53,970 nt of DNA from Pyrinomonadaceae bacterium (GTDB taxonomy: Bacteria; Acidobacteriota; Blastocatellia; Pyrinomonadales; Pyrinomonadaceae). Numbering within the stretch: the stretch's first letter is position 1; each line of letters opens with the position of its first letter. The stretch lies in the NCBI GenBank assembly GCA_035577445.1, contig DATLVM010000223.1:1-53970 (forward strand), given 5' to 3'. The position numbers and the translations under genes were made by a program. The notes beneath the pieces are model-generated. The model saw only the letters and a program-made list of their open reading frames with translations, had not been told where the DNA came from and ran no database searches. Shown here in pieces: positions 23,358 to 52,565 of the stretch.

Positions 23358-23918
23358 TTAACCAATTATCTCCTCTACTCGCAGTGAGAGGTTTGGAACG
23401 GTCAGCGAATGCAACTGTTCTCCGAGACCGAAAGTCGTTGAGTCTGTGTAAGCTCCCGCCGCTGGTGTGCCGTAGACTTCAATAATTCGATTAGGCAAGT
23501 TCACCAGCCAAACCTCAGGAACGTCAGCACGAGCGTACAGCGGCACCTTGACGTTGCGGTCAGTCAGGATCGTAGCGTCAGAAACTTCGACGATTACCAA
23601 AACGTCTTCAGCCGTCGGATGGCTAGTGGTATAGAAATCGTCACGCGGTTTCAAGACTGCGATGTCTGGCACTGGCTCGGAAAAATCATAAAGTCTGACC
23701 GGGTTCTGCACTGCAACTATCGCCCCTTCGCCGAGACACTTCTTGAGAAGTAGTTCAAGCCGGTTTACATGACCGGCATGGGCGCTTCCAATTGGAGGCA
23801 TGCGAATTATCTCTCCTTCAATCAGTTCAACCCGATCGTCCGGCTGCAACACGCCTACTTCAGCCAGCCGGTAATACTGGTCAACGTTGAAGTGCCATCG
23901 TTCAAGCTGTGCCGACAT
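23358..23918 (-). CDS. Uma2 family (DUF820) putative endonuclease
   Basis: Typical Uma2 pattern: VELIEGEIIRMPPIGSAHA ... PDIAV ... VIVEVSD ... K-x-P-LYA. Confidence 0.75.
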   Translation of the reverse strand: MSAQLERWHFNVDQYYRLAEVGVLQPDDRVELIEGEIIRMPPIGSAHAGHVNRLELLLKKCLGEGAIVAVQNPVRLYDFSEPVPDIAVLKPRDDFYTTSHPTAEDVLVIVEVSDATILTDRNVKVPLYARADVPEVWLVNLPNRIIEVYGTPAAGAYTDSTTFGLGEQLHSLTVPNLSLRVEEIIG

Positions 23919-40660: not shown

Positions 40661-41187
40661 TCATCTCTCTTCTAACTGATTTGCGATTTCCGACGGCATC
40701 AGTTGCCGAAGTTCCGGATAGCTCTCAGCGATCCGAATGAGATCCAGCTCGTCCTTCTTTCGTTTCGATAAGCGACGTTTCGGATCGCTCCAAGCCCAAA
40801 CTTTCCCACGTACGACATTTGCGAGCGAGGCTACCGGAACCTCGCAGCCCAGGACTGTGTTTCGTTCAGTATCCGCCAGGAAATTCTGATACCTCGGATC
40901 GGTGGTGAATTGAATTCGCAGTTCGCTGCCTTTCATTTGCGCGTTGACTGAATGCTCATGCTCAGTGACCTGAAATCCGGCAGCGCTCAATTCGTTCTGG
41001 ATCGTGGGTAGCGAAGCCGACACAACCACCATGTCAGCATCCATCGTGTATACCGGTTCGACATAGCAGTTGACTGCGAGTCCTCCGACCAAACACCACG
41101 GACCATGTTTGCTCAGAATCGTGATCACCGCAGCGAAATCGCTTGCGCCGCCGTTCGTAACCGACTCAAATATTTCGGTTGCCGTCA

Positions 41188-41188
<1 letters not shown>
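40661..41188 (-). CDS. nucleotidyltransferase-fold hypothetical protein
   Basis: VGGLAVNCYVEPVYTMDADMVV matches the minimal NTase G-[GS]-x9-13-D-x-D signature. Its ATG overlaps the fadA stop (TGATG). Confidence 0.55.
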
Positions 41189-42366
<1,178 letters not shown>

Positions 42367-42462: not shown

Positions 42463-44904
42463 TTAATTCCTCAGAGGCTTCCCCGTTTTCAACATATGCC
42501 CGATGCGATCCTGCGTCTTGCGGGTTCCGATCAAAGACAGAAACGCTTCGCGTTCTAAATCGAGCAAGTACTGTTCACTAACTTTCGTTGTGTGATTCAA
42601 ATCGCCACCGGTTAGTATTCTGGCCAGCTTTTCACCAATCAACGCATCGTGATCCGAAATGTAACCCGCGCGCTTCATGAGATGCACGCCAAGCTTCAAA
42701 GTGGCCAACGCCGGTGCGCCCAAAGCGAGAATGTCCGTCCGCTGTTGCGCTTGAACATAACCAGTAGCGGCTAATGCCAGCACCTGTTTCTTCGCATCGG
42801 CAATTAATCGATCGGAATTCATCGAGATCGAATCTTCATCGCGCAGGAATCCAAAGTCACGCGCTTGTTCGGCTGAGGTGGCGACCTTCGCCAGAGCAAT
42901 GGTTTCGAAGGCCCGTTTCACAAACGGAAATGGATCAGCATCTTTCATATCGGCGGGAATCGAATCCATCGCGCGCACCAGCATCTCTTTCGTGCCGCAG
43001 CCCGCAGGAATAATTCCGACGCCAACTTCGACCAGGCCGATGTAGGTTTCCGCCGCGGCGCGTACACGATCCGCGTGCAAAACCATCTCGCAGCCTCCGC
43101 CGAAAACCATCTGGAACGGCGCGACCACGACTGGCTTCGGCGAATAGCGCAGGCTCATCACAGATGATTGGAAGTAGCGACCAATCATCTCGAGTTCTTC
43201 CCAGTTTTCGTCCTGCGCTTCCATCAACATCAGCATCAGGTTCGCGCCGACTGAAAAGTTGACGCCTTGATTGCCAACCACGAGGCCCACGAAATTCTTT
43301 TCGGTTTCCGAAATCGCAAAGCGCAGCATCTCGAGCGTGTCGCCACCGATCGAATTCATCTTCGAATGAAATTCGACACCGGCGACGCCATCGCCGAGAT
43401 CGATCATCGATGCGCCGGAATTCTTTTTGATCACTCCGGTGCGATCCTTCAGCGATTTCAAAACAATTGTGCCCGGCGGATCCGAAAGCGGAATATATCT
43501 GGACGACGTAAAATCGAAATAGAAGCGTTGCCCGTTTTCCTGTTTGTAGAAAGTCTTCGCGCCTGAGTCGAGCATCGACTGCACATTCGGCGGAACCGCG
43601 CGCCCTTCTTCCTTTAACTTGGCGACTGATTTCTCGACGCCAATCGCGTCCCAAACTTCGAACGGCCCAAACTCCCAGTTGAAACCCCAGCGCATGGCGC
43701 GATCGATTTCGACAACGGTGTCAGCAATTTCCGGAATTCGATCAGCGGTGTAGGTGAGCGTTCTCGAAATCGTTTTCCACAGAAAAGCGCCGACGCGTTC
43801 CTTCGACCAGACGAGCGCCTTCAGACGATCTCGCAGGTCCTCAACGTTCTTGGCCATTTCCAGGGCAGGGAACTTGACCTTCTGCGATGGACGATAATCG
43901 AGGGTGGCGGTATCGAGCGTCCAAATCTCTCGCTTATCGCCCTCGCCTTTTTTGCGCTGATAGAAGCCACCCTTGGTCTTGTTGCCGAGAATTCCACGGT
44001 CAATCATCTTCGTGACGAATTCAGGCATGACGAACGTCTCGCGCTCAGGATCGTCGGGAAGGTTTTCGTGCAGGTTCTTGACGACGTGCGCCAACACATC
44101 AAGGCCGACTAGATCGAAGGTGCGAAACGTCGCGGTCTTCGGCCGACCAGCGGCGGGCCCGGTGATCTTGTCCACCTCTTCGATCGAGTAACCGTCTTCC
44201 AGCATCGTGCGCATCGTTACCAACGCGCCGTAGGTGCCGATGCGATTCGCGATGAAGTTCGGCCGATCCTTCGCGACTACCACGCCTTTGCCCAGCCGCT
44301 CGTCGAGGAAGCCAAACATCGAGCAGGAAACTTCCGGCTTCGTCCACTCAGTGCGAATCAACTCGACGAGGTGCATGTAACGCGGCGGGTTGAAAAAGTG
44401 CATGCCGAGGAAGTGCGCTTTGAAATCATCGGAGCGTCCTTCGGCGAGCTGCTTGAGCGGAATGCCGCTCGTGTTCGAAGCGACGATTGCGCCAGGTTTA
44501 CGATGCTGTTCGACTTTCTCGTAGAGGCTGCGTTTGATTTCGAGATTCTCGACGACTGCTTCGATGATCAGGTCACAGTCTTTGAGCTGCGGCAGATCGT
44601 CTTCAAAGTTTCCAATCGCAACGAGAGAAGCGCGATCGGCGGTGAAGAAAGCTGCGGGCTTGGCTTTCTTTGCGGCTTCAAGACCGGCGCGAGCGATGAA
44701 ATTTCGATCGGGCTCTTGCACCCTTTCCGCTTCGCTTGCCTTCCCTGACGGTCGGGCTTCTGACACGCTCTTTGCCGGCGCGTTGGATTCCTTCGGCACA
44801 ATGTCGAGGAGAAGCGTCGGCACGCCCGCGTTCGCGAGGTGCGCGGCGATTTGCGCGCCCATTGTGCCCGCGCCCAGCACAGCAGCTTTTTTGACCTGAA
44901 TCAT
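42463..44904 (-). CDS. fadN: bifunctional 3-hydroxyacyl-CoA dehydrogenase / enoyl-CoA hydratase, FadN-type domain order (HAD N-terminal, ECH C-terminal)
   Basis: N-terminal Rossmann motif KKAAVLGAGTMGAQIA. C-terminal crotonase fold (APFQMVFGGGCEM). ATG 44904 (MIQVKKAAVLG) is preferred because the 44934 start lies inside a palindromic operator-like site. Confidence 0.9.
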   Translation of the reverse strand: MIQVKKAAVLGAGTMGAQIAAHLANAGVPTLLLDIVPKESNAPAKSVSEARPSGKASEAERVQEPDRNFIARAGLEAAKKAKPAAFFTADRASLVAIGNFEDDLPQLKDCDLIIEAVVENLEIKRSLYEKVEQHRKPGAIVASNTSGIPLKQLAEGRSDDFKAHFLGMHFFNPPRYMHLVELIRTEWTKPEVSCSMFGFLDERLGKGVVVAKDRPNFIANRIGTYGALVTMRTMLEDGYSIEEVDKITGPAAGRPKTATFRTFDLVGLDVLAHVVKNLHENLPDDPERETFVMPEFVTKMIDRGILGNKTKGGFYQRKKGEGDKREIWTLDTATLDYRPSQKVKFPALEMAKNVEDLRDRLKALVWSKERVGAFLWKTISRTLTYTADRIPEIADTVVEIDRAMRWGFNWEFGPFEVWDAIGVEKSVAKLKEEGRAVPPNVQSMLDSGAKTFYKQENGQRFYFDFTSSRYIPLSDPPGTIVLKSLKDRTGVIKKNSGASMIDLGDGVAGVEFHSKMNSIGGDTLEMLRFAISETEKNFVGLVVGNQGVNFSVGANLMLMLMEAQDENWEELEMIGRYFQSSVMSLRYSPKPVVVAPFQMVFGGGCEMVLHADRVRAAAETYIGLVEVGVGIIPAGCGTKEMLVRAMDSIPADMKDADPFPFVKRAFETIALAKVATSAEQARDFGFLRDEDSISMNSDRLIADAKKQVLALAATGYVQAQQRTDILALGAPALATLKLGVHLMKRAGYISDHDALIGEKLARILTGGDLNHTTKVSEQYLLDLEREAFLSLIGTRKTQDRIGHMLKTGKPLRN

Positions 44905-44918
44905 GGCGGTAGATAATA

Positions 44919-44938
44919 CTGAATGAGTATTCATTCAG
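44919..44938. promoter_or_regulatory. palindromic operator-like site CTGAATGA-GTAT-TCATTCAG upstream of fadN
   Basis: Perfect 8-bp arms with a 4-bp spacer, 15-34 nt upstream of the preferred fadN ATG. Confidence 0.6.
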
Positions 44939-44976
44939 CAAGCTTCGCAACGGTTTTTCTCAGTCAACTCCGACGC

Positions 44977-45040
44977 TGTGGGTTCGGTCATAAAGTGAGA
45001 TTGGTAGGTCATAAAGTGAAATCCTTCTGTCATAAAGTGG
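44977..45040. repeat. transposon end A: three phased copies of the GGTCATAAAGTGA motif
   Basis: TCATAAAGTG starts at 44988, 45009 and 45030, an exact 21-bp phasing. A degenerate copy (TCATAATG) lies at 45063. Confidence 0.8.
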
Positions 45041-45178
45041 TGCGGAGAAATAGGGGTTTGATTCATAATGCTGCTACTCAAACCTAATAGCTTCCACCAT
45101 AAGACTCCGCGCATAAAGAGGCTGGAGAAAGACGAGCACTAACGACATTGGGTCGGAATCATTGCTATCAGAAATTAG

Positions 45179-45207
45179 TTGACTGCCGGCATAGATTGGA
45201 ATATTTT
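45179..45207 (+). promoter_or_regulatory. sigma-70-like promoter candidate for the cargo operon
   Basis: TTGACT (45179-45184), a 17-nt spacer, then TATTTT (45202-45207). It lies about 210 nt upstream of the first cargo ATG. Confidence 0.4.
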
Positions 45208-45415
45208 CTTATCCGCATTTACCAACAGGCTGGTCCTCAGAGCCTACCCCTTTTATGGCGTTCTCTTCAGTACTAGCCTCTTACTAAGCCAATCAGGCTG
45301 GTTTGGCCACCAGTTTCCCAATTTCTAATTCTAAAATGGCAAGGGGAATTAGAATCACGCGATCGAAAATAGGCTGGAAAAGCTCGGTTCCAATCAGGAA
45401 GGGATAAATTGAAAC

Positions 45416-46603
45416 ATGTCAACACCTCACATGCTTTCTACTAACTTATATCTGTCTAACACGGCCAATGTACTTTCAGCCGGCCAACAACTGCGAGACA
45501 TGTTGGGCGAAGATGTCGAGACGCTGGATTACGCAGTGACACGTTTGGAAGAAGCCTCCAGAAATCAGGAAGATGGGGCGACTAAGTATCGTGCGTTCAT
45601 GTTCGCTGAGCTGGAGACGAGCGGAGCTGTGCAAAAAGAGAGGCGAGAAAGGATAACTGAAGATGTATTTGCCAGTGTACTGACGGATCTGCAAATAGCG
45701 AACGTGTTAATGGCAGCGGGAAATGCCGTAGGAGAGACTAATGGCGACTCAAGGCCTCAATTGCTTGACGAAGCTTTGAACGATTTGGATGAGACGACTC
45801 CGGTGATTCAAAGAGGTCTATCCAGTCCACTGGCCAAAGGGTCAGAGCCAGGTCGTTTCAACTTTTCAGGAACTTCTGCTCAACCAACTGTTTTCACATC
45901 AGCCGACGTAGCCTCTGCCGTTCAAACCTTTCAGAAAACTTCCTATGAGACTCTGGATAAGCTTGTCGGCGGTGTCCATGAGGTAGCCCTTGGCGTTTTC
46001 GACGCCTTACAACGGCTTGGTCCGCAAGAAATATTAGAAGCGCTGAACCAATTGGGAGGACCCGTGCAAACCTTCACCGGCATGATACGTCGGTTGATTA
46101 ATCAGGGAATCCAGAAGATGAAACAAGCCCTTGACGATTTGGTCCGCCTGATAGGCAACGATGCGATCGCGAAACTGAGAGACAAGATCAAAGAATTGTG
46201 GAAAGACAGAGAGCAGGGAATAATCGATAAGCTTCTAGCCAAGATTGTCGGCGTTGAGAACACGCGTGCCAGTATTACAACCATCTTGAGTCTCGAGGGG
46301 ATTGACAGGGACACTGCGGATCGCGGCAGCAACGATCTGTCACAACTCTTGATTCCGTACAGGAACAATGTGGAAATGGCAAAAAAAGCTGTGAAAGCGA
46401 TCAGCTTTGGCAGCAGCGTGCTAATCTTGACGCCAATTGCCGGTCATCATATAGCGCTATTTGCGGCTTCCTCTTATCTGATAATCCTAACGGCTGTCAT
46501 TCTGATTGCAATGGACTATGCCGACTCAGGGGGCATTCTTCAGCGCGTTCGCGGGGTAGGCGAGATTGCCGAGGGCCTCCGAGCACACGGGACCGTCCAA
46601 TAA
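45416..46603 (+). CDS. hypothetical helical protein with C-terminal two-helix membrane anchor (cargo gene A)
   Basis: RBS AGGAAGGG. 395 aa, predicted largely helical from composition. The C-terminus contains AISFGSSVLILTPIAGHHIALF and SSYLIILTAVILIAMDY. No signal peptide. Confidence 0.7.
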   Translation: MSTPHMLSTNLYLSNTANVLSAGQQLRDMLGEDVETLDYAVTRLEEASRNQEDGATKYRAFMFAELETSGAVQKERRERITEDVFASVLTDLQIANVLMAAGNAVGETNGDSRPQLLDEALNDLDETTPVIQRGLSSPLAKGSEPGRFNFSGTSAQPTVFTSADVASAVQTFQKTSYETLDKLVGGVHEVALGVFDALQRLGPQEILEALNQLGGPVQTFTGMIRRLINQGIQKMKQALDDLVRLIGNDAIAKLRDKIKELWKDREQGIIDKLLAKIVGVENTRASITTILSLEGIDRDTADRGSNDLSQLLIPYRNNVEMAKKAVKAISFGSSVLILTPIAGHHIALFAASSYLIILTAVILIAMDYADSGGILQRVRGVGEIAEGLRAHGTVQ

Positions 46604-46645
46604 TCCGGGAATTATAGGCAAGCCACCACTTGGTAAGGACGAACA

Positions 46646-47842
46646 ATGTCGGGTTTAGAGCGTACCGCTTTGGATGAAAAATCCCTCATATTAGTACATG
46701 TGCGTGCCCTGCTTGAGCAACTCGATTGGGCCGAGTCTTCATTGCGCACCACTGGTATCGAGCCTCGGATAATGGAGGCCGCGAGAGTTGGTTTTGCCGT
46801 CTTATTTAAGCAGAGGCGAAATGAGCTGACGCGTATGCAAGCCTCAATCGCTAAAGGCGCGATACAGGCCGACGCCTGGAAGCAATTGCGAACCTTCAGG
46901 CGTTCATGCGCAGAGCTCTTCAAGGAGTGTCTTGAGTTTCTGGGGGGCGCCATGCTCCGTGCCGCGCATAAAAAAGATGACATTTGCGAAATTGCGGACG
47001 CCCTATTAATTGAATTAAGTCGCAATACCCCGATTCAGTGGAAAGGCGTCACGCTGTTGGCCGAGGCCAATTTTTTTACCGAGACGACGGGGCTGATACG
47101 TTTACCGTTTCCCGATTACGGTATCTGGAACTTGCCGATTGCGGTCCATGAGCTCGGACATTTCATTGGACCTCGGATTCCCGATGGAATGGGCGGCTTT
47201 CCATTCCAAGCGCTTCAACAAAATGTCCCGGCTAGCCTCTCAGTCAAAGGCGTGGAACAGGAAAAATCTCATTTGCGGGAACTCTTTTCTGATCTGTTTG
47301 CGACGTATGCCCTGGGCCCTGCCTATGCTTGTTCTTGTATCCTACTGCGTTTCGATCCTCAAGATGCCACGGCTTGCGAGGACAGCGAAACACATCCCAG
47401 CCATGCCAAACGCGTCCATTTCATTCTTAAAGCGCTTGACCAGATGAGTAAAACTACTGAGGGATGGCCTTATGCGAACATGATCGACCACCTGCAAGCT
47501 CTTTGGGATCGGATTCTGACACGCGCCGGGCACGAAAAATGTCTCGACGAAAAAAAGATTCCGCCTCTTAACTACCAGTTGTTTGAACTCTACCCGATAC
47601 TCGCCAAATTTGTGCCGACAGTTCAATACGACGGTTGGGACCGCGCCGTTGCACTGAGTAACGAACTGTCGCTTGGCCGGAAACCGGCGGCGCTCCTGCA
47701 AGCTGAGGATACAATCGCTGACGTGCTTAATGCCGCCTGGTTATGGCGGCTGCGACAAAATGTTGAGAACAGCAACACTGTGCATCAGGTGAATCTTGAA
47801 GCTATTGCCCTGTGTCGCGAGGTCATCGGCGTCGGCCGATGA
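46646..47842 (+). CDS. HExxH zinc-metallopeptidase-like protein (cargo gene B)
   Basis: LPIAVHELGHFIG is followed 40 residues later by RELFSDLFATYALGPAY, a candidate third-ligand Glu and gluzincin-like helix. RBS AAGGACG. Confidence 0.7.
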   Translation: MSGLERTALDEKSLILVHVRALLEQLDWAESSLRTTGIEPRIMEAARVGFAVLFKQRRNELTRMQASIAKGAIQADAWKQLRTFRRSCAELFKECLEFLGGAMLRAAHKKDDICEIADALLIELSRNTPIQWKGVTLLAEANFFTETTGLIRLPFPDYGIWNLPIAVHELGHFIGPRIPDGMGGFPFQALQQNVPASLSVKGVEQEKSHLRELFSDLFATYALGPAYACSCILLRFDPQDATACEDSETHPSHAKRVHFILKALDQMSKTTEGWPYANMIDHLQALWDRILTRAGHEKCLDEKKIPPLNYQLFELYPILAKFVPTVQYDGWDRAVALSNELSLGRKPAALLQAEDTIADVLNAAWLWRLRQNVENSNTVHQVNLEAIALCREVIGVGR

Positions 47843-47921
47843 CCATGAACTCTTGACTCCTGATAAGACTGCTTATCAGGTTCACAAGAGTTCGCGCCGA
47901 AGTGAACAAGGAGAATGTGAT

Positions 47922-49229
47922 ATGGACCTCATCATTAAAATACGATTAGAGGCACTGAAAAATAACTTAACCAAGATCCGCCAGATCTTAGAATCGGTGA
48001 AGGGCCGGCGATACGAGATCGATGAGTTGAGCAACGGTCTAACCCTTTCCCAGGAAAAGCTTGACTTGGTGGGGGAAAACGTCACGAACGTTTTGAATAC
48101 ATCACGAAACACATTCGCCAGGAAGCAAATAGATGAAGGTCTCACGCGGCTGTTGGAAGTCGCCGAAGAAAAGGCAATTAGTCTCCGTCAAGACTTAGAG
48201 AAGACCAAGGAAGCCATTAAGGCGATACAGACTCGATGGACGCTGATAGAAGAAGGATTTGAAGCTAAAGTTAAGGAAGATCTAGATGACAAGATTGGCT
48301 CATGGTTTAACGAAATCGACGATGACATCAAGGCGCTCAGCGGCGCCCCATCCAGCGTATTGAATAAGCAAATTGAAAAAGCCTGGGGCGACTATAACAA
48401 AATCATGTCGCAGCAGAGCCAACTTGTTTTCTCTAACTATGTGGAATTTCTTGGCGGGCTAGCGTTGCGCGGCGCTGGCCTTGATGAAGGAATCTGCCGG
48501 ATAGCCGATGAGCTAATGCGAAGTTGCGGCTCATTTGGAACAACCCATTGGTCGGCGCTGACCATTCCGGCGAGTCAAGAAGCCATGACGCTGGCGCGCA
48601 GCATTCGCGTGCGATTTCCGGAGTGGACCATATGGGCCGTTCCGCTTACGGCCCACGAATTAGGACAGGTCGTGATAAGAGGCAACTCTAAACTTGAAAG
48701 TTACATTAATATGCAATACCCGGCTCGCACTAAGAAAACCATGAAGAAGGCCATGAAAGGCCAACAGCATATGCGCATCTATTTGGCGGATGCTTTTGCC
48801 ACTTATGTGATGGGGCCTGCCTATGCCTGCTCCGTAATCCTGCTTCGATTCAATCCCCTGTCAGACAATCAAGACAGCGACTATCCCGCAGATGCCAAAC
48901 GAGCACACGTTGTATTAAGTACGTTGAAGAAGATGGGGAGCGATCCGCTTATTGGCACGCCCTACGAGGATATTGTCGATAAATTGAAAATCGAATGGGA
49001 TGCTGCCCTCGCTCAGGCACAAACCCAAGCCCCCGCGACTTGGGACGAAGACGTAATGCTCCTCGATGGATGGATTGATCGTTTATTGGAAGAACTAAGC
49101 ACGACCTATCCCAACAGCCTATATCAGGGCGGACTGTGGAAGAGCACGCGAGAGGCCTTGAAGCTTCTTCTTAAGGGCGAAGACCCCGGAGGTAAATTGA
49201 AAGGGCGCGAAGATTGGGGGACGTGCTGA
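47922..49229 (+). CDS. coiled-coil + degenerate (HELGQ) zincin-like paralog of gene B (cargo gene C, main frame)
   Basis: ATG 47922 lies after AAGGAGA. It aligns with gene B through EFLGG, ICxIAD, IWxxPxxxHELG, FATYxxGPAYACSxILLRF and AKRxHxxL. It has HELGQ instead of HELGH and RIYLAD instead of RELFSD. The frame ends at TGA 49227-49229 just after a G5 run. Confidence 0.7.
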   Translation: MDLIIKIRLEALKNNLTKIRQILESVKGRRYEIDELSNGLTLSQEKLDLVGENVTNVLNTSRNTFARKQIDEGLTRLLEVAEEKAISLRQDLEKTKEAIKAIQTRWTLIEEGFEAKVKEDLDDKIGSWFNEIDDDIKALSGAPSSVLNKQIEKAWGDYNKIMSQQSQLVFSNYVEFLGGLALRGAGLDEGICRIADELMRSCGSFGTTHWSALTIPASQEAMTLARSIRVRFPEWTIWAVPLTAHELGQVVIRGNSKLESYINMQYPARTKKTMKKAMKGQQHMRIYLADAFATYVMGPAYACSVILLRFNPLSDNQDSDYPADAKRAHVVLSTLKKMGSDPLIGTPYEDIVDKLKIEWDAALAQAQTQAPATWDEDVMLLDGWIDRLLEELSTTYPNSLYQGGLWKSTREALKLLLKGEDPGGKLKGREDWGTC

Positions 49230-49408
49230 ACGCAGCCTGGGCCTGTCGGGTTGATAACGTGGACGAGTCCCTGAAGATTGCTAAGAACGCCGAAGAACTG
49301 TGGCGCCAGATTGAAAAGAAAAAGAGTGAGACTCCAGAGCGTCAGGTCTCCTCATCTGGATATCCAGCAAACAGAGTTCCCCGCATTCAAGCGGACAAGA
49401 AGTCATGA
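49214..49408 (+). CDS. C-terminal segment of cargo gene C in the -1 frame
   Basis: GDVLNAAWACRVDN aligns with ADVLNAAWLWRLRQN near the C-terminus of gene B. Its stop overlaps the ATG of the TPR gene (ATGA at 49405-49408). Confidence 0.6.
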   Translation: MGDVLNAAWACRVDNVDESLKIAKNAEELWRQIEKKKSETPERQVSSSGYPANRVPRIQADKKS

Positions 49409-51795
49409 CAACCAAAAACTCGCGAAGTCGACATTCGAACGCCACCGGCCTGCCGCTGACTAATCTGGAAAGCAGATTTGATCTGGCCCCAGCCGTGCGC
49501 TTGCCCAGTCCCGATTCTTTCGCGCCATACCGATCGGATCTTAACCGGGCTTTGAGCGAATATAATCTGGCAAACTTTGACGAAGCCAAGTTAATCCTTA
49601 GCAAGCTGTCGTCAGGTCTAAAACAGATCCTGGACACTAAAGTCAAAGACAGTGGGCAAGCTCATTTGTTATACGCCTCGACATTGACTGCTCTAGGTCG
49701 GACTTGCGAACGATTGGGCCAGGAAAAAGGCGCCACCAGCGCCTTCGAAAAAGCAGCGGCGGAGTTCAAAAAGTGGATTTCCGAAGCAGAAGAACCCGCC
49801 GATCAGTTGTATTCAGATTACGGCGTAGCCCTTTTTAAGATTGCGCGCCCAAGGTTAACCATTCAAGTTTTTCGCGAGGTTCTCAAGCGAGGGACTCTTA
49901 ACGCTGAGAGCAATCGTTATATGGGCATCTGCCTGGGTCGACTAGGCAAATACAAGGAGGCCGAGGAGCGTTTTAGCGAAGCTCTCAAACAAGATCCGGA
50001 TCACTACATGACGCATAAGGCCCTGGGTGAGATGCTTGCAAAGCAGGGCAAGATTCATGAAGCAGTGGTCGAATACCACGCCACAGTTCTTTATATGGTC
50101 GACTCCGGATTGGCGGATGAGGCTCTCGATATTTTGGAACACATCCTGAAGTTGACAAAGCGGGATTCGCAATACCTCGCGCTCAAGGGAGAGATTTTAC
50201 GTAGTAAGGGCGATTTAAAGGGCGCGTTCAGAGCCTTAAATCAGAGTCTCAAGCGCCAGCCAAAAAATGCATTTGCCAGCGCCGTAAAGGGCTTGGTGTT
50301 GTTAGCGTTGAATAAGAATGAGGAGGGCGTTCGCCTTCTGGAGAAAGCCCTTAGGTTGGACTCGACCCTCGACTGGGTGCCCCTGGAATTGGCTAACGCT
50401 CAATATAGGATGAGACGTTACAAAAGGGCTCTGTCCGCTTTGAATCAGGCTCTGGCTAGAGACCCTGGCAATGTGAGCGCGTTGTCTCATAAGGCAGAAA
50501 CCCTAAATGCTATGGGTCGAAACACCGAAGCCCTCCTGGTTTTGGACGAAGCCCTCAAACTCAAACCAGACGCACTCCTCCTGGGGTTAAAAGGACGAGT
50601 GCTACGCCACTTGAATCGCTACGAGAAAGCCCTCAAGGTCCTGCGAGCGTCGATAAATCTTGACGCTCGTGTTGCCTGGGTTCATGCAGAGTTAGGCGCC
50701 GTTCTTTATGCTCTTGGCCAAAACGAAGAAGCGCTCCAAGCGGTGATTGACGGCCTCGCAATTCAGCCAGATAACGTCTTTGCCTTAAGTTACAAGGGTG
50801 AGATCCTCCGAGCGCTCGAAAAAAGCGAGGAGGCGCTGCAAGTCATGAATCAAACCCTGGCATTGTCTCCCCACGATCCCTGGGCACTCGGCACTAAAGG
50901 CCAAGCGCTTCGCGATGTGGGGCGGGCCGGAGAAGCTATTGACGTCCTGCAACAGTCAATCGAACTTGACCCGACATTAGCGTGGGTACACTTAGAACTA
51001 AGCGCAGCGCATTATGGTCTGGGCCACTACCGGTCCGCCTTGGAATCGCTAGACAAGGCGTTGCGACTCCAGAATGATAGCGATTGGTACCTCTTCAAAG
51101 CTCACATCCTCTGTGAGGTCGCCGAGTTCAAGGCTGCGGTCAAGGCCCTGCACCGCGCAATCCAAATTAATAGGAATGTCGCAGAGGCGTTCGGCCTTTT
51201 GGGATGGGCCTTACAACATCTCGGAGTCAAGCAGGCAAGAAACACATTACAGGCTTATGAATCTGCCGTAAACCTGGAGCCGGATAACTTATGGTGGCAT
51301 AAAGGCGTCGCCAACAGTCTCTACCTAATGGGCAACCAAAAGGGAGCTGCCGCCAAATACAGATGGGTCGTGGAGCAAGCTAGAAGGCGGGCTAAAAAAG
51401 AAAATGCTGAGGCAAAATTTCTGTCGCTGGTCGCTTGGTGCCAATATCGTCTCGGGAAGTGCGAACAGGCCGTACAACTATTCAGTGAGGTTATTTCGCT
51501 CGATCCGCAGCAGTTTGCCAGCCAATTCGATTTAGCTTTGTCTCTGATTTGTTGCGGACGTTATAGTGAAGCGTTGCGCGAGTATAACCGCGGAGTAAGA
51601 GCCTCGATGGAATTACCCGCACTACGGTGTCGCAGCCTGACCTTTGTGGCTTTGTACGACCTCAACATAGCCGTGAGAATGCACCGTCAGTTAGCAGAGG
51701 TAGAAGAGTTAAATGAAGCCCGAGCTCTGCTCGAAACTACCTACAAGCAATCATCGGAACTTGGCGCTCTGAGCCAGACTGTAGCTCCGGAATAG
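49405..51795 (+). CDS. large TPR-repeat protein (cargo gene D)
   Basis: 796 aa. There are more than 15 consecutive 34-aa TPR-like units with the pattern A-x3-L-x2-AL-x-L-x-P-x3-A/W repeated throughout. Confidence 0.85.
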   Translation: MTTKNSRSRHSNATGLPLTNLESRFDLAPAVRLPSPDSFAPYRSDLNRALSEYNLANFDEAKLILSKLSSGLKQILDTKVKDSGQAHLLYASTLTALGRTCERLGQEKGATSAFEKAAAEFKKWISEAEEPADQLYSDYGVALFKIARPRLTIQVFREVLKRGTLNAESNRYMGICLGRLGKYKEAEERFSEALKQDPDHYMTHKALGEMLAKQGKIHEAVVEYHATVLYMVDSGLADEALDILEHILKLTKRDSQYLALKGEILRSKGDLKGAFRALNQSLKRQPKNAFASAVKGLVLLALNKNEEGVRLLEKALRLDSTLDWVPLELANAQYRMRRYKRALSALNQALARDPGNVSALSHKAETLNAMGRNTEALLVLDEALKLKPDALLLGLKGRVLRHLNRYEKALKVLRASINLDARVAWVHAELGAVLYALGQNEEALQAVIDGLAIQPDNVFALSYKGEILRALEKSEEALQVMNQTLALSPHDPWALGTKGQALRDVGRAGEAIDVLQQSIELDPTLAWVHLELSAAHYGLGHYRSALESLDKALRLQNDSDWYLFKAHILCEVAEFKAAVKALHRAIQINRNVAEAFGLLGWALQHLGVKQARNTLQAYESAVNLEPDNLWWHKGVANSLYLMGNQKGAAAKYRWVVEQARRRAKKENAEAKFLSLVAWCQYRLGKCEQAVQLFSEVISLDPQQFASQFDLALSLICCGRYSEALREYNRGVRASMELPALRCRSLTFVALYDLNIAVRMHRQLAEVEELNEARALLETTYKQSSELGALSQTVAPE

Positions 51796-51991
51796 GCAAT
51801 GCTAGCCGCCTGCGACTCTTCCAAGGTGCCTTCGTTCGAATACCTGCGCTGAAACCAGGTAGGCGATCTGTCGTTAGCCGGTCGCGAAAGTTAGGAGTGA
51901 CGAAAACTCAAGACGGCAAGGGGCAAAAAGGCTCTGAACAAATTCATAGCAAAATAAAACTGCCTCCCCGGAGGCGGACATAGGAAACTTT

Positions 51992-52120
51992 CAACTTATG
52001 CCCGAAAACTGTAGGAAATTTTCACGTTATGCCCGACTTTATTTTCACTTAATGACCGAATCGCGCCTATAAGTCGTTGATACCACGTAGAAGCTATTTC
52101 ACTTAATCACCGAACCCACA
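51992..52120. repeat. transposon end B: four copies of the inverted subterminal motif
   Basis: The reverse-complement motif occurs as CAACTTATGC (51992), CACGTTATGC (52023), CACTTAATGA (52046) and CACTTAATCA (52100). Each is followed by CCGA(A/C). Confidence 0.8.
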
Positions 52121-52565
52121 GACGCCGCCGATGCGCAAGCTTCTTACGTCGTGCAACAACAATCGGGAGCAACTAGATCGAAAACGCCACGAAGCCGCCA
52201 AGATTAGAAAATAGAAGAGCGAAAGTATCCAGCCTGTAGACGACCGGCCCAAGACCCCAGGATTCTCCGCGACCGTCTTTGCCTTTGCTCAAGGCACTCA
52301 ACGAAAATTGCGCCGAGCGAACCCGCCAGATTTTTTTCTCAACAACTAAACCTTTCCGCAGCAACACCCACTTATAGCGATGTCTGGAGAAGACAAGCGA
52401 CCTATTCAAGGGGAAAACCTGAAACCCATCGATTGTCGCTCGCGCTACGCCAAAAAAAATGAATTACCAGCGGTTAAATACTCATGGCGGCTATCGCTTA
52501 TTACGGATGCGGCGGTAACACAAAACGCCTTGTTAAAGCGTCCATTCAGCTAAAGGAGATCAACC

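What the first reader, a model, noticed from the sequence alone, without database searches (positions are those of the whole stretch)
44977..45070. Phased arrays of subterminal repeats: 21-bp periodicity at one end, four spaced copies at the other
At end A, the core TCATAAAGTG begins at 44988, 45009 and 45030. The spacing is exactly 21 bp, two helical turns, and a degenerate TCATAATG lies at 45063. At end B, the inverted core occurs at 51992 (CAACTTATGCCCGAA), 52023 (CACGTTATGCCCGAC), 52046 (CACTTAATGACCGAA) and 52100 (CACTTAATCACCGAA), with spacings of 31, 23 and 54 bp. Asymmetric ends with 3-4 binding sites, contiguous at one end and spaced at the other, are the architecture known for TnsB sites in Tn7-like elements, including CRISPR-associated transposons. 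The consensus is roughly TTCGG(T/G)CAT(A/T)AAGTGAAA.
Basis: partly seen in the sequence, partly recalled or inferred. Interest (0 to 1): 0.7.

Follow-up and report, generated by a model that had tools for sequence, protein, structure and literature searches.

The report
Ends of a transposase-less Tn7-like transposon
The two repeat arrays are the right and left ends of a 7.1-kb Tn7-like mobile element that carries cargo genes but no transposase of its own, inserted at a fixed spot beside the FadR operator of a fatty-acid-degradation operon, a spot that a whole family of such elements in soil Acidobacteria uses.

Summary
Window 44977-52120 is a 7,144-bp element with TGTGGGTTCGG…/…CCGAACCCACA termini and a perfect 5-bp target duplication (GACGC). 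It has three repeats 21 bp apart at one end and four repeats spaced 54/23/31 bp at the other. The claimed fourth copy at 45063 is out of phase and unsupported.

The Tn7-like reading is supported. The same terminal 21-mer marks about 70 ends in Pyrinomonadaceae/Blastocatellia genomes, with both architectures conserved. Contiguous (right) ends lie 35-39 bp from a FadR-box palindrome in the fad-operon promoter in 40 loci. Spaced (left) ends never do, and they carry an IHF-like site between sites 1 and 2, as in type I-F CRISPR-associated transposons (CASTs).

Large relatives link an identical right tip to tnsA on one sequence. They encode TnsA, TnsB (E=7e-78 to a solved CAST TnsB), TniB and two TniQ proteins, but no Cas genes. 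The window element has none of these, so it depends on a helper in trans or is a decayed copy.

Unusual family features are abundant cargo-only derivatives, head-to-tail arrays, and a DnaG-type primase at the right end. Verdict: a new variant of a known kind, of moderate interest.

The parts
44919..44938 (.). FadR-box palindrome CTGAATGAGTATTCATTCAG. It lies in the 17-bp spacer of a TTGCTG…TATTAT promoter of the fadB-like operon and is the landmark of the attachment site.
   Evidence: The core is identical to the crystallised B. halodurans FadR operator (PMC5397183). It lies 38 bp from the element tip. 42 family right ends lie 35-48 bp from the same box.
42463..44904 (-). fadB-like gene (3-hydroxyacyl-CoA dehydrogenase / enoyl-CoA hydratase), the first gene of the fad operon next to the attachment site. 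The likely ATG is at 44904.
   Evidence: Pfam 3HCDH_N, 3HCDH and ECH_1. The same operon flanks family right ends.
44972..44976 (+). Target-site duplication, att-proximal copy (GACGC).
   Evidence: Read; 5/5 identical to 52121-52125.
44977..45043 (+). Right end. It comprises the tip TGTGGGTT and three contiguous putative TnsB-binding sites: R1 44983-44997, R2 45004-45018, R3 45025-45039 (21-bp phase).
   Evidence: D8, I1. The family consensus has sites at offsets 10/31/52. Homology to the family ends at about nt 63-72.
45063..45070 (+). It is probably not a site.
   Evidence: It is out of phase (33 bp from R3). It lies outside the family-conserved segment.
45416..46603 (+). Cargo ORF1 (395 aa), function unknown.
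   Evidence: No Pfam, NCBIfam or PDB match and only a weak PADLOC hit. No homologue in other family elements.
46646..47842 (+). Cargo ORF2 (398 aa), function unknown; a paralogue of ORF3.
   Evidence: ORF2 and ORF3 cluster together, and DNA repeats D1 and D9 link them.
47796..49229 (+). Cargo ORF3 (477 aa), function unknown; a paralogue of ORF2.
49405..51795 (+). Cargo ORF4 (796 aa), a tetratricopeptide-repeat (TPR) protein.
   Evidence: Pfam TPR families, E down to 7e-52.
51989..52120 (-). Left end. It comprises the tip (…AACCCACA at 52113-52120) and four spaced putative TnsB sites: L1 52097-52114, L2 52043-52060, L3 52020-52037, L4 51989-52006.
   Evidence: D2, I1, I13. The spacings of 54/23/31 are identical to the family offsets of 10/64/87/118. 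Homology to the family extends about 139 nt.
52070..52082 (-). IHF-like consensus TATCAACGACTTA (WATCAANNNNTTR) between L1 and L2.
   Evidence: Present in 31 of 44 family left ends and in the window. An IHF site in this position is functional in type I-F CAST left ends (PMC10201428).
52121..52125 (+). Target-site duplication, distal copy (GACGC).

Best explanation
The two arrays are the cis-acting right (44977-45043) and left (51989-52120) ends of a 7,144-bp Tn7-like transposon.

Proposed mechanism:
1. Each roughly 19-bp repeat is a binding site for a TnsB-type DDE transposase. Three head-to-tail sites at the right end and four spaced sites at the left end load TnsB protomers. An IHF-like bend between L1 and L2 helps them pair the ends asymmetrically.
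2. TnsA and TnsB cut at the TGT/ACA tips.
3. TniB (TnsC) and a TniQ-family selector mark the target beside the FadR-box promoter of the fad operon.
4. The element is joined about 38 bp from the box, right end proximal, with a 5-bp staggered cut that becomes the GACGC duplication.

The window element encodes none of these proteins. It is a cargo-only derivative that keeps just the minimal ends. It either relies on a related autonomous element (over 31 kb, carrying primase, TnsA, TnsB, TniB and two TniQ proteins) acting in trans, or is a copy that lost its core genes in place.

Shown here: the anatomy, family conservation, the attachment-site geometry, and the physical linkage of identical ends to tns genes.
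Inferred: TnsB binding to the repeats, IHF use, which protein reads the target, and mobilisation in trans.
For: - **Anatomy.** TGT…ACA tips, a 26-nt terminal inverted repeat, a 5/5 target duplication, and 21-bp versus 54/23/31-bp site spacing.
- **Motif confined to the ends**.
- **Family.** 69 genome loci carry the same 21-mer, nearly all in Pyrinomonadaceae/Blastocatellia, and fall into two conserved end classes.
- **Attachment site.** 42 right ends lie 35-48 bp from the FadR box, 40 of them at 35-39 bp. None of 46 left ends does. The spacer sequence is not conserved, and the distance from box to coding sequence varies from 44 to 152 bp.
- **Linkage.** L089 has the box, a 38-bp spacer, an identical right tip and then tnsA, with no internal ends. 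The merged L075+L164 sequence has a right end and the tns module on one contig.
- **Proteins.** TnsA-like_N, rve, Mu-transpos_C, TniB and TniQ all exceed Pfam thresholds. TnsB scores 7e-78 against PseCAST TnsB and 8e-21 against Tn7 TnsB. Both TniQ proteins are closest to type I-F CAST TniQ.
- **Comparison with Tn7.** The Tn7 right end, taken from a real record, shares the TGTGGG tip, a first site 8-9 nt in, and four contiguous roughly 22-bp sites.
- **IHF site.** A site between L1 and L2 is documented for type I-F CASTs.
- **Minimal ends.** Homology to the family is confined to about 68 nt (right) and about 139 nt (left), close to the 70/144 bp used for mini-Tn7.
Against: - No transposition gene lies in the window element or anywhere in the 54-kb window, so no helper has been shown for this genome.
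- No left end of an autonomous element was reached; those elements exceed 31 kb.
- Binding of TnsB to the repeats is untested.
- Head-to-tail arrays in relatives sit uneasily with the strong target immunity of characterised Tn7-like elements.
- In autonomous relatives the tns operon is 9-13 kb inside the element and a primase sits next to the right end. This is not the canonical Tn7 layout.
Confidence: 0.85

Rival explanations
1. The ends are Tn7-like, but the window element was never mobilised in trans. On this view it is an autonomous element that inserted once at the attachment site and later lost its primase and tns genes by internal deletion or cargo replacement. The repeat arrays would then be relics.
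For: Truncated primase remnants sit just inside at least 15 family right ends, which shows frequent decay in place. A tniQ fragment lies next to a truncated left end in L058. A perfect duplication would survive internal deletion. No helper is in the window.
Against: The window element keeps no remnant of any core gene. Similarity to the family stops exactly at the functional site arrays. Many small complete elements exist, including a 408-bp cargo-less one (L063) and arrays with 5-bp spacers. The same cargo-only element occurs at 96.7% identity with different outside flanks in L040 and L058.
Confidence: 0.35
2. The 21-bp tandem repeats are iterons of a replication origin, bound by the element's primase/Rep-like protein (DUF3854), and are not transposase sites.
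For: The repeats are direct and spaced two helical turns apart. In full-length relatives they lie immediately upstream of a DnaG-type primase gene. DUF3854 proteins act as plasmid Rep proteins in cyanobacteria.
Against: The window element has the repeats but no primase. The same repeats occur inverted at the far end, with TGT/ACA tips and a 5-bp duplication. Primase homologues also occur in integrase-type islands and in a T4SS-like block, without these repeats.
Confidence: 0.03
3. The arrays are arm-type sites of a tyrosine or serine site-specific recombination system, that is, an integrative island with an integrase, an excisionase and IHF.
For: There is an IHF-like site and multiple arm-like repeats. 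Large relatives carry an excisionase-family HTH_17 gene. Related primase islands carry a tyrosine integrase.
Against: No integrase occurs in any transposon-ended element. The 5-bp flanking duplication differs in sequence between genomes, which indicates staggered target cleavage and not a shared core. TnsA and TnsB are physically linked to the ends.
Confidence: 0.03
4. The ends belong to a different DDE family with multi-site ends and 5-bp duplications (Tn5053/Tn402 or Mu-like), not to the Tn7 family.
For: Tn402-type and Mu ends also have several subterminal sites and 5-bp duplications (established knowledge). The ATPase matches the Pfam TniB model.
Against: A TnsA endonuclease is present, and TnsB matches solved Tn7-family and CAST TnsB proteins far better than anything else. 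The tip TGTGGG is identical to that of Tn7. No resolvase or res module was seen.
Confidence: 0.03

Closest known systems
Tn7 (prototype; TnsABC+D, attTn7 downstream of glmS)
   Same: - Identical TGTGGG tip, with the first site 8-9 nt in.
- Four contiguous roughly 22-bp TnsB sites at the right end and spaced sites at the left end.
- 5-bp duplication.
- Right end proximal to a conserved landmark at a fixed distance.
- TnsA + TnsB + AAA+ adaptor + TniQ-family selector.

   Different: - TnsB is only distantly related (8e-21).
- The attachment site is a promoter/operator region upstream of a gene, not the 3' end of a coding sequence.
- In autonomous relatives the tns operon is internal and a primase sits at the right end.
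- The window copy has no tns genes.
- Natural tandem arrays are common.
Type I-F3 CRISPR-associated transposons (Tn6677/VchCAST, PseCAST)
   Same: - Nearest solved TnsB (7e-78 and 5e-67) and nearest TniQ.
- An IHF consensus lies between the two terminal left-end TnsB sites.
- Asymmetric ends and right-end-proximal insertion.
   Different: - No Cas genes or CRISPR array in any context examined.
- Target selection is presumably by two TniQ proteins that carry HTH_17 domains.
- Four left-end sites, not three.
Tn6022/AbaR-type Tn7-like islands and other att-specific Tn7-like elements
   Same: Tn7-like core, a dedicated chromosomal attachment site, diverse (often defence) cargo, and island formation.
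   Different: Tn6022 shows very strong target immunity at an occupied site. This family forms head-to-tail arrays with roughly 5-bp spacers. The attachment site and the selectors also differ.
Laboratory mini-Tn7 / mini-CAST donors, and non-autonomous derivatives of other transposons (MITEs, mobile insertion cassettes)
   Same: Only the cis-acting ends are retained (about 68 nt right and about 139 nt left, against 70/144 bp in mini-Tn7). Cargo lies between them and the transposase would be supplied in trans.
   Different: These are natural, they carry up to several kb of varied cargo, and they accumulate at one chromosomal site. I found no published description of natural Tn7-like equivalents.

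Membership tests
Tn7-like transposons | Terminal 5'-TGT…ACA-3' inverted termini | tested here: met
   TGTGGGTTCGG at 44977 and CCGAACCCACA ending at 52120.
Tn7-like transposons | 5-bp target-site duplication | tested here: met
   GACGC on both sides, 5/5. Array spacers in relatives are mostly 5 bp, and one contig reuses the same 5-mer, ACATG.
Tn7-like transposons | Multiple transposase-binding repeats arranged asymmetrically: contiguous at the right end and spaced at the left | tested here: met
   Window offsets are 10/31/52 at one end and 10/64/87/118 at the other. Both are conserved, in 23 right and 44 left family ends.
Tn7-like transposons | The element encodes TnsA + TnsB (DDE) + TnsC/TniB + a TniQ/TnsD selector | tested here: not met
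   Not met for the window element, which has no such gene. Met for autonomous relatives with the same right end: L089, L159, L165, L167 and L075+L164. The window copy is therefore a non-autonomous or decayed member.
Tn7-like transposons | Site- and orientation-specific insertion at a fixed distance from a conserved landmark, right end proximal | tested here: met
   42 right ends and no left ends lie 35-48 bp from the FadR box; the window distance is 38 bp.
Tn7-like transposons | TnsB physically binds the repeats | not testable with these tools
   This needs a footprint or EMSA.
Tn7-like transposons | Target immunity (no second insertion next to a resident copy) | tested here: inconclusive
   Head-to-tail arrays are common in relatives, which argues for weak or absent immunity. 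The timing and mechanism of array formation are unknown.
CRISPR-associated transposons (CAST) | A nuclease-deficient CRISPR-Cas module and a CRISPR array inside the element | tested here: not met
   No Cas domain appears in the precomputed Pfam annotation of five tns-bearing contexts. The window element has four ORFs and none is Cas-like.
Tn5053/Tn402 family | TniA/TniB/TniQ without TnsA, plus a resolvase and res site | tested here: not met
   TnsA is present (45 bits against a 26.5 cutoff). No resolvase was seen in the contexts.
Iteron-type replication origin | Direct repeats at a single locus next to a rep gene, not bounded by inverted termini or a target duplication | tested here: not met
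   The same repeats occur inverted 7 kb away, at TGT/ACA termini with a 5-bp duplication. The window element has no rep or primase gene.

The most novel reading that the evidence does not exclude
In Pyrinomonadaceae, a Tn7-like system may work as a natural gene-cassette platform. On this reading, one large helper (primase, TnsA, TnsB, TniB and two TniQ-HTH proteins) mobilises many transposase-less cargo cassettes in trans. The cassettes go to a single chromosomal hotspot defined by the FadR operator of the fad promoter, possibly by reading the repressor-operator complex. They stack head to tail with little or no target immunity. The result would be functionally analogous to an integron but built from transposon ends.
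Probability: 0.25. Interest if true: 0.7.

Novelty: new variant of a known kind. Interest (0 to 1): 0.45.

Why it matters
The value lies in the family they led to.

- **A new attachment site.** As far as I could find, this is an undescribed Tn7-like lineage in soil Acidobacteria. Its attachment site is a transcription-factor operator and promoter (a FadR box), not a coding sequence, a tRNA or a CRISPR-guided site.
- **A CAST-like TnsB without CRISPR.** Its TnsB is a close relative of type I-F CAST TnsB but has no CRISPR-Cas partner.
- **A different lifestyle.** The family has spawned many natural 'mini' elements that carry diverse cargo and stack in arrays at one site.

If mobilisation in trans and weak target immunity are real, the family is a natural model for multi-copy, site-specific cargo stacking. 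It would also supply compact ends (about 70 and 140 bp) and new protein-only target selectors for genome engineering. The finding also shows that transposon cargo surveys anchored on transposase genes will miss such elements.

Tried and rejected
- **Transposase inside the window element.** Pfam, NCBIfam, PADLOC and PDB sequence searches of ORF1-4 found none.
- **Transposase next to the 75 ends from genomes.** Pfam scans of 39 individual ORFs and a batch of 87 more found only cargo. No recombinase family was shared by two or more ORFs. The batch output lists only the top 25 families, so single occurrences could have been missed.
- **The conserved gene at the right end (DUF3854) as a novel Toprim transposase.** Rejected. 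The AlphaFold model (pLDDT 67) matches DnaG and T7 primase catalytic cores. Homologues also sit in tyrosine-integrase islands and in a T4SS-like block.
- **phmmer with real Tn7 TnsA/B/C.** Searches of about 1.4 Mb of end- or primase-centred DNA found nothing, because the tns operon lies 9-13 kb inside. It was found only by anchoring on the internal HTH_17 regulator.
- **The 796-aa unannotated ORF after the primase in L070.** It is present in only 5 of 21 elements, so it is cargo.
- **Viral contigs.** No match to the end.
- **Merging 8-kb genome blocks into arrays.** The blocks do not overlap.
- **The left end of an autonomous element.** Not reached within 31 kb, and the look-up quota was then exhausted.

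Full report
**1. Observation**

Reading the sequence confirms every coordinate in the finding.
- TCATAAAGTG starts at 44988, 45009 and 45030, with an exact 21-bp phase.
- The inverted cores start at 51992, 52023, 52046 and 52100, with spacings of 31, 23 and 54 bp.

The repeat finder recovers both arrays (D8, D2). It also finds a 26-nt, 88% terminal inverted repeat, CTGTGGGTTCGGTCATAAAGTGAGAT / ATTTCACTTAATCACCGAACCCACAG, at 44976-45001 and 52096-52121.

The termini are TGT…ACA. The element (44977-52120, 7,144 bp) is flanked by a perfect 5-bp direct repeat, GACGC, at 44972-44976 and 52121-52125.

The core motif is not scattered. Six matches (up to 1 mismatch) occur in 54 kb against 1.5 expected, and five of them are in the two ends. 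The exact 15-nt tip occurs only at the two termini. GC content is about 0.50 inside against 0.55-0.58 outside.

The 'degenerate TCATAATG at 45063' is the one unsupported detail. It is 33 bp, not 21 bp, from the third site. Relatives place a fourth site at offset 73-75. Similarity of this end to the family stops at nt 63-72.

**2. Contents of the window element**

The interior holds four + strand ORFs. Three have no match in Pfam, NCBIfam, PADLOC or PDB sequences: 45416-46603, 46646-47842 and 47796-49229, the last two being paralogues. The fourth is a 796-aa TPR protein, 49405-51795.

There is no transposase, ATPase or TniQ in the element. tblastn with the family's own core proteins finds nothing anywhere in the window.

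**3. The ends define a family**

A scan of 185,579 species-representative genomes for TGTGGGTTCGGTNATNAAGTG returned 69 loci. All but two chance hits are in Pyrinomonadaceae/Blastocatellia (Acidobacteriota) MAGs.

Oriented inward, the ends fall into two conserved classes.
- 23 'R' ends have sites at offsets 10/31/52(/73-75), like window end A.
- 44 'L' ends have sites at 10/64-65/87-88/118-119. These spacings (54/23/31) are exactly those of window end B.
- Between L1 and L2, 31 of 44 L ends and the window carry WATCAANNNNTTR (AATCAATAACTTA; TATCAACGACTTA in the window).

Genes just inside the ends are extremely diverse. They include Ser/Thr kinases fused to repeat domains, TPR-CHAT, HEAT/TPR, multicopper oxidases, a chromate transporter, permeases, TonB-type receptors, KaiC-like ATPases, sigma factors and hydrolases.

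Some elements are tiny. L063 holds a 408-bp cargo-less element.

**4. A dedicated attachment site**

Right ends sit next to one conserved sequence, the palindrome CTGAATGA-N4-TCATTCAG upstream of the fadB-like/thiolase/acyl-CoA-dehydrogenase operon.

Across all loci, 42 R ends lie 35-48 bp from it, 40 of them at 35-39 bp with a mode of 38. The window distance is 38 bp. None of 46 L ends lies near it. The intervening spacer is not conserved.

The distance from the palindrome to the conserved GxGxMG codons of fadB varies from 44 to 152 nt (SD 25). The insertion point is therefore measured from the palindrome and not from the coding sequence.

The palindrome lies in the 17-bp spacer of a TTGCTG…TATTAT promoter. 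Its half-sites are those of the TetR-family FadR box. The window's core TGAATGAATACTCATTCA is identical to the B. halodurans operator crystallised with FadR, and the B. subtilis consensus is WTGAATGAMTANTCATTCAN (PMC5397183).

Many loci show elements abutting head to tail with spacers of about 5 bp. In one contig the att-proximal duplication (ACATG) equals the array spacer, as expected for repeated insertion at the same 5-bp target.

**5. Finding the transposase**

No transposition gene lies beside any of the 75 ends.

The only gene recurrently found inside R ends is a 383-aa Zn-ribbon + Toprim protein (DUF3854). It is full length in L008 and survives as truncated remnants in at least 15 loci. 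I considered it as a novel transposase and rejected that. Its AlphaFold model (pLDDT 67) matches DnaG and T7 primase catalytic cores. Homologues also occur beside tyrosine integrases and in a T4SS-like block without these ends.

Real Tn7 TnsA/B/C (fetched from NZ_CP024247.1) found nothing in about 1.4 Mb of end- or primase-centred DNA.

Clustering the genes downstream of the primase revealed a small PASTA protein (19 of 21 loci). It also revealed an internal excisionase-family HTH_17 regulatory module 7-10 kb inside.

Using that module as an anchor exposed the missing genes in L158 and L159:
- TnsA (Tn7_TnsA-like_N, 45 bits)
- TnsB (rve 38 bits, Mu-transpos_C 42 bits)
- TniB (94 bits)
- a 654-aa protein with two HTH_17 domains
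- TniQ (32 bits)

All the named Pfam domains score above their gathering thresholds.

tblastn then showed the same p131-tnsA junction in L089, whose R tip is identical to the window's 21-mer. It sits 38 bp from the FadR box, with no other end in between.

TniQ homologues on known contigs gave complete modules: TnsA about 221 aa, TnsB about 775 aa, TniB 309 aa, and two TniQ+HTH_17 proteins of 748-874 and 415-473 aa.

L164 overlaps L075 exactly. The merged 40.9-kb sequence has the R end, the primase, cargo, the tns module and more cargo, and no L end for over 31 kb. No Cas genes were annotated in these contexts.

The TnsB matches solved TnsB proteins: PseCAST 7e-78, Tn6677 5e-67, ShCAST 1e-30, Tn7 8e-21. 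Both TniQ proteins are closest to type I-F CAST TniQ.

**6. Mechanism**

The evidence supports the standard Tn7-family pathway.
1. TnsB protomers bind R1-R3 and L1-L4.
2. The gap between L1 and L2 is closed by an IHF-type bend. That is a demonstrated requirement in VchCAST, whose IHF site AATCAGCAAACTTA occupies the same position (PMC10201428).
3. TnsA and TnsB excise at the TGT/ACA tips.
4. A TniQ-family selector and TniB mark the target next to the FadR box.
5. Strand transfer occurs with a 5-bp stagger, right end proximal.

Shown here: the anatomy, its conservation, the attachment-site geometry, and the linkage of identical ends to tns genes.
Inferred: TnsB binding, IHF use, and which selector reads the site.

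For the window copy, the source of transposase is open. Similarity to the family is confined to about 68 nt (R) and about 139 nt (L), close to the 70/144 bp used in mini-Tn7 donors. Its cargo is unique, and it keeps no remnant of core genes. Small complete relatives are common, and one cargo-only element recurs at 96.7% identity with different flanks in L040 and L058. Together these favour mobilisation in trans. However, decay of an autonomous copy in place, which is clearly frequent in the family, cannot be excluded.

**7. Comparison and novelty**

The element works like, and by its ends belongs to, the Tn7-like transposons. Its nearest characterised relatives are type I-F3 CASTs, but it fails the CAST criterion because it has no CRISPR-Cas module. 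It is not a Tn5053/Tn402-type element because TnsA is present.

Departures from the canonical pattern:
- The attachment site is beside a transcription-factor operator in a promoter.
- A primase sits at the right end, and the tns operon is internal.
- There are two TniQ-HTH_17 selectors.
- Natural transposase-less derivatives are abundant.
- Arrays form despite the strong target immunity reported for Tn6022 (PMC11014353).

Literature searches found no description of this family or of natural non-autonomous Tn7-like cassettes. Benler et al. list only four acidobacterial hosts.

**8. Verdict**

The feature is a real pair of ends of a Tn7-like element that lacks its own transposase. I rate it a new variant of a known kind, with interest 0.45.

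Noticed in passing
L011, L012, L016, L018, L032, L068, L092, L101 (junctions …ACCCACA-N5-TGTGGGT…): Family elements are stacked head to tail with spacers of about 5 bp. In contig JBASRE010000059.1 the att-proximal duplication (ACATG, L013) equals the array spacer (L068). This is unexpected given the strong target immunity reported for other Tn7-like elements.
   Followed up: partly
L008:5397-6548(-); remnants in L018, L060, L034, L065, L002, L004, L048, L010, L033, L026, L046, L069, L039, L056, L064: A 383-aa Zn-ribbon + Toprim (DUF3854) protein is the first gene inside autonomous right ends and has a DnaG-primase fold. Its role in a cut-and-paste transposon is unexplained. A small PASTA-domain gene follows it in 19 of 21 elements.
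   Followed up: yes
L105, L106, L110, L112 (upstream of 10001); L074, L076: Primase homologues at 58-72% identity sit directly after a tyrosine-integrase gene, or after a ribonucleotide-reductase gene in a T4SS-like block. Neither context has the transposon ends. The primase module has evidently moved between different kinds of mobile island.
   Followed up: partly
L085:9862: A family right end with a primase is inserted away from any FadR box, apparently within coding sequence. This may be evidence of a second, non-att targeting pathway, consistent with the two TniQ proteins.
   Followed up: no
L063:1644-2051: A 408-bp MITE-like family element with both ends and no cargo sits at the same fadB attachment site. 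Its flanks do not form a duplication.
   Followed up: partly
L040:4198-8000 and L058:2244-5996: The same cargo-only element (96.7% identity over 3.77 kb) lies next to completely different outside sequence in two MAGs. In L058 it abuts a truncated left end and a 19-aa tniQ remnant.
   Followed up: partly
window 46646-47842 and 47796-49229: Cargo ORF2 and ORF3 are paralogues (DNA repeats D1 and D9, about 1.5 kb apart). Neither they nor ORF1 match any profile or solved-structure sequence. With the downstream TPR protein they could form an uncharacterised system.
   Followed up: partly
window 40661-41191 (-): A 176-aa ORF with a partial AbiEii (type IV toxin) match lies between the thiolase and acyl-CoA dehydrogenase genes of the fad operon. 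The syntenic loci L070, L073 and L075 have no gene there.
   Followed up: no
window 23358-23918 (-): A Uma2-family putative restriction endonuclease (Pfam 9.5e-30). It surfaced only as a spurious 10-bit phmmer hit to Tn7 TnsB.
   Followed up: yes
L008:217-2643(-); L070:14841-17274; L164:13858-16256: Cargo of autonomous relatives includes a Piwi-domain (pAgo-like) protein, a Thoeris-like ThsB/SIR2 cluster, and a nested IS21-type insertion (rve + IstB).
   Followed up: no
L072:642, L073:9891, L075:9663, L101, L103: A sub-lineage uses variant tips and sites (TGTGGGATCCGGCATTAAATGAAAT) together with a more divergent primase (70-77% identity). This hints that the ends co-vary with the element's proteins.
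   Followed up: no
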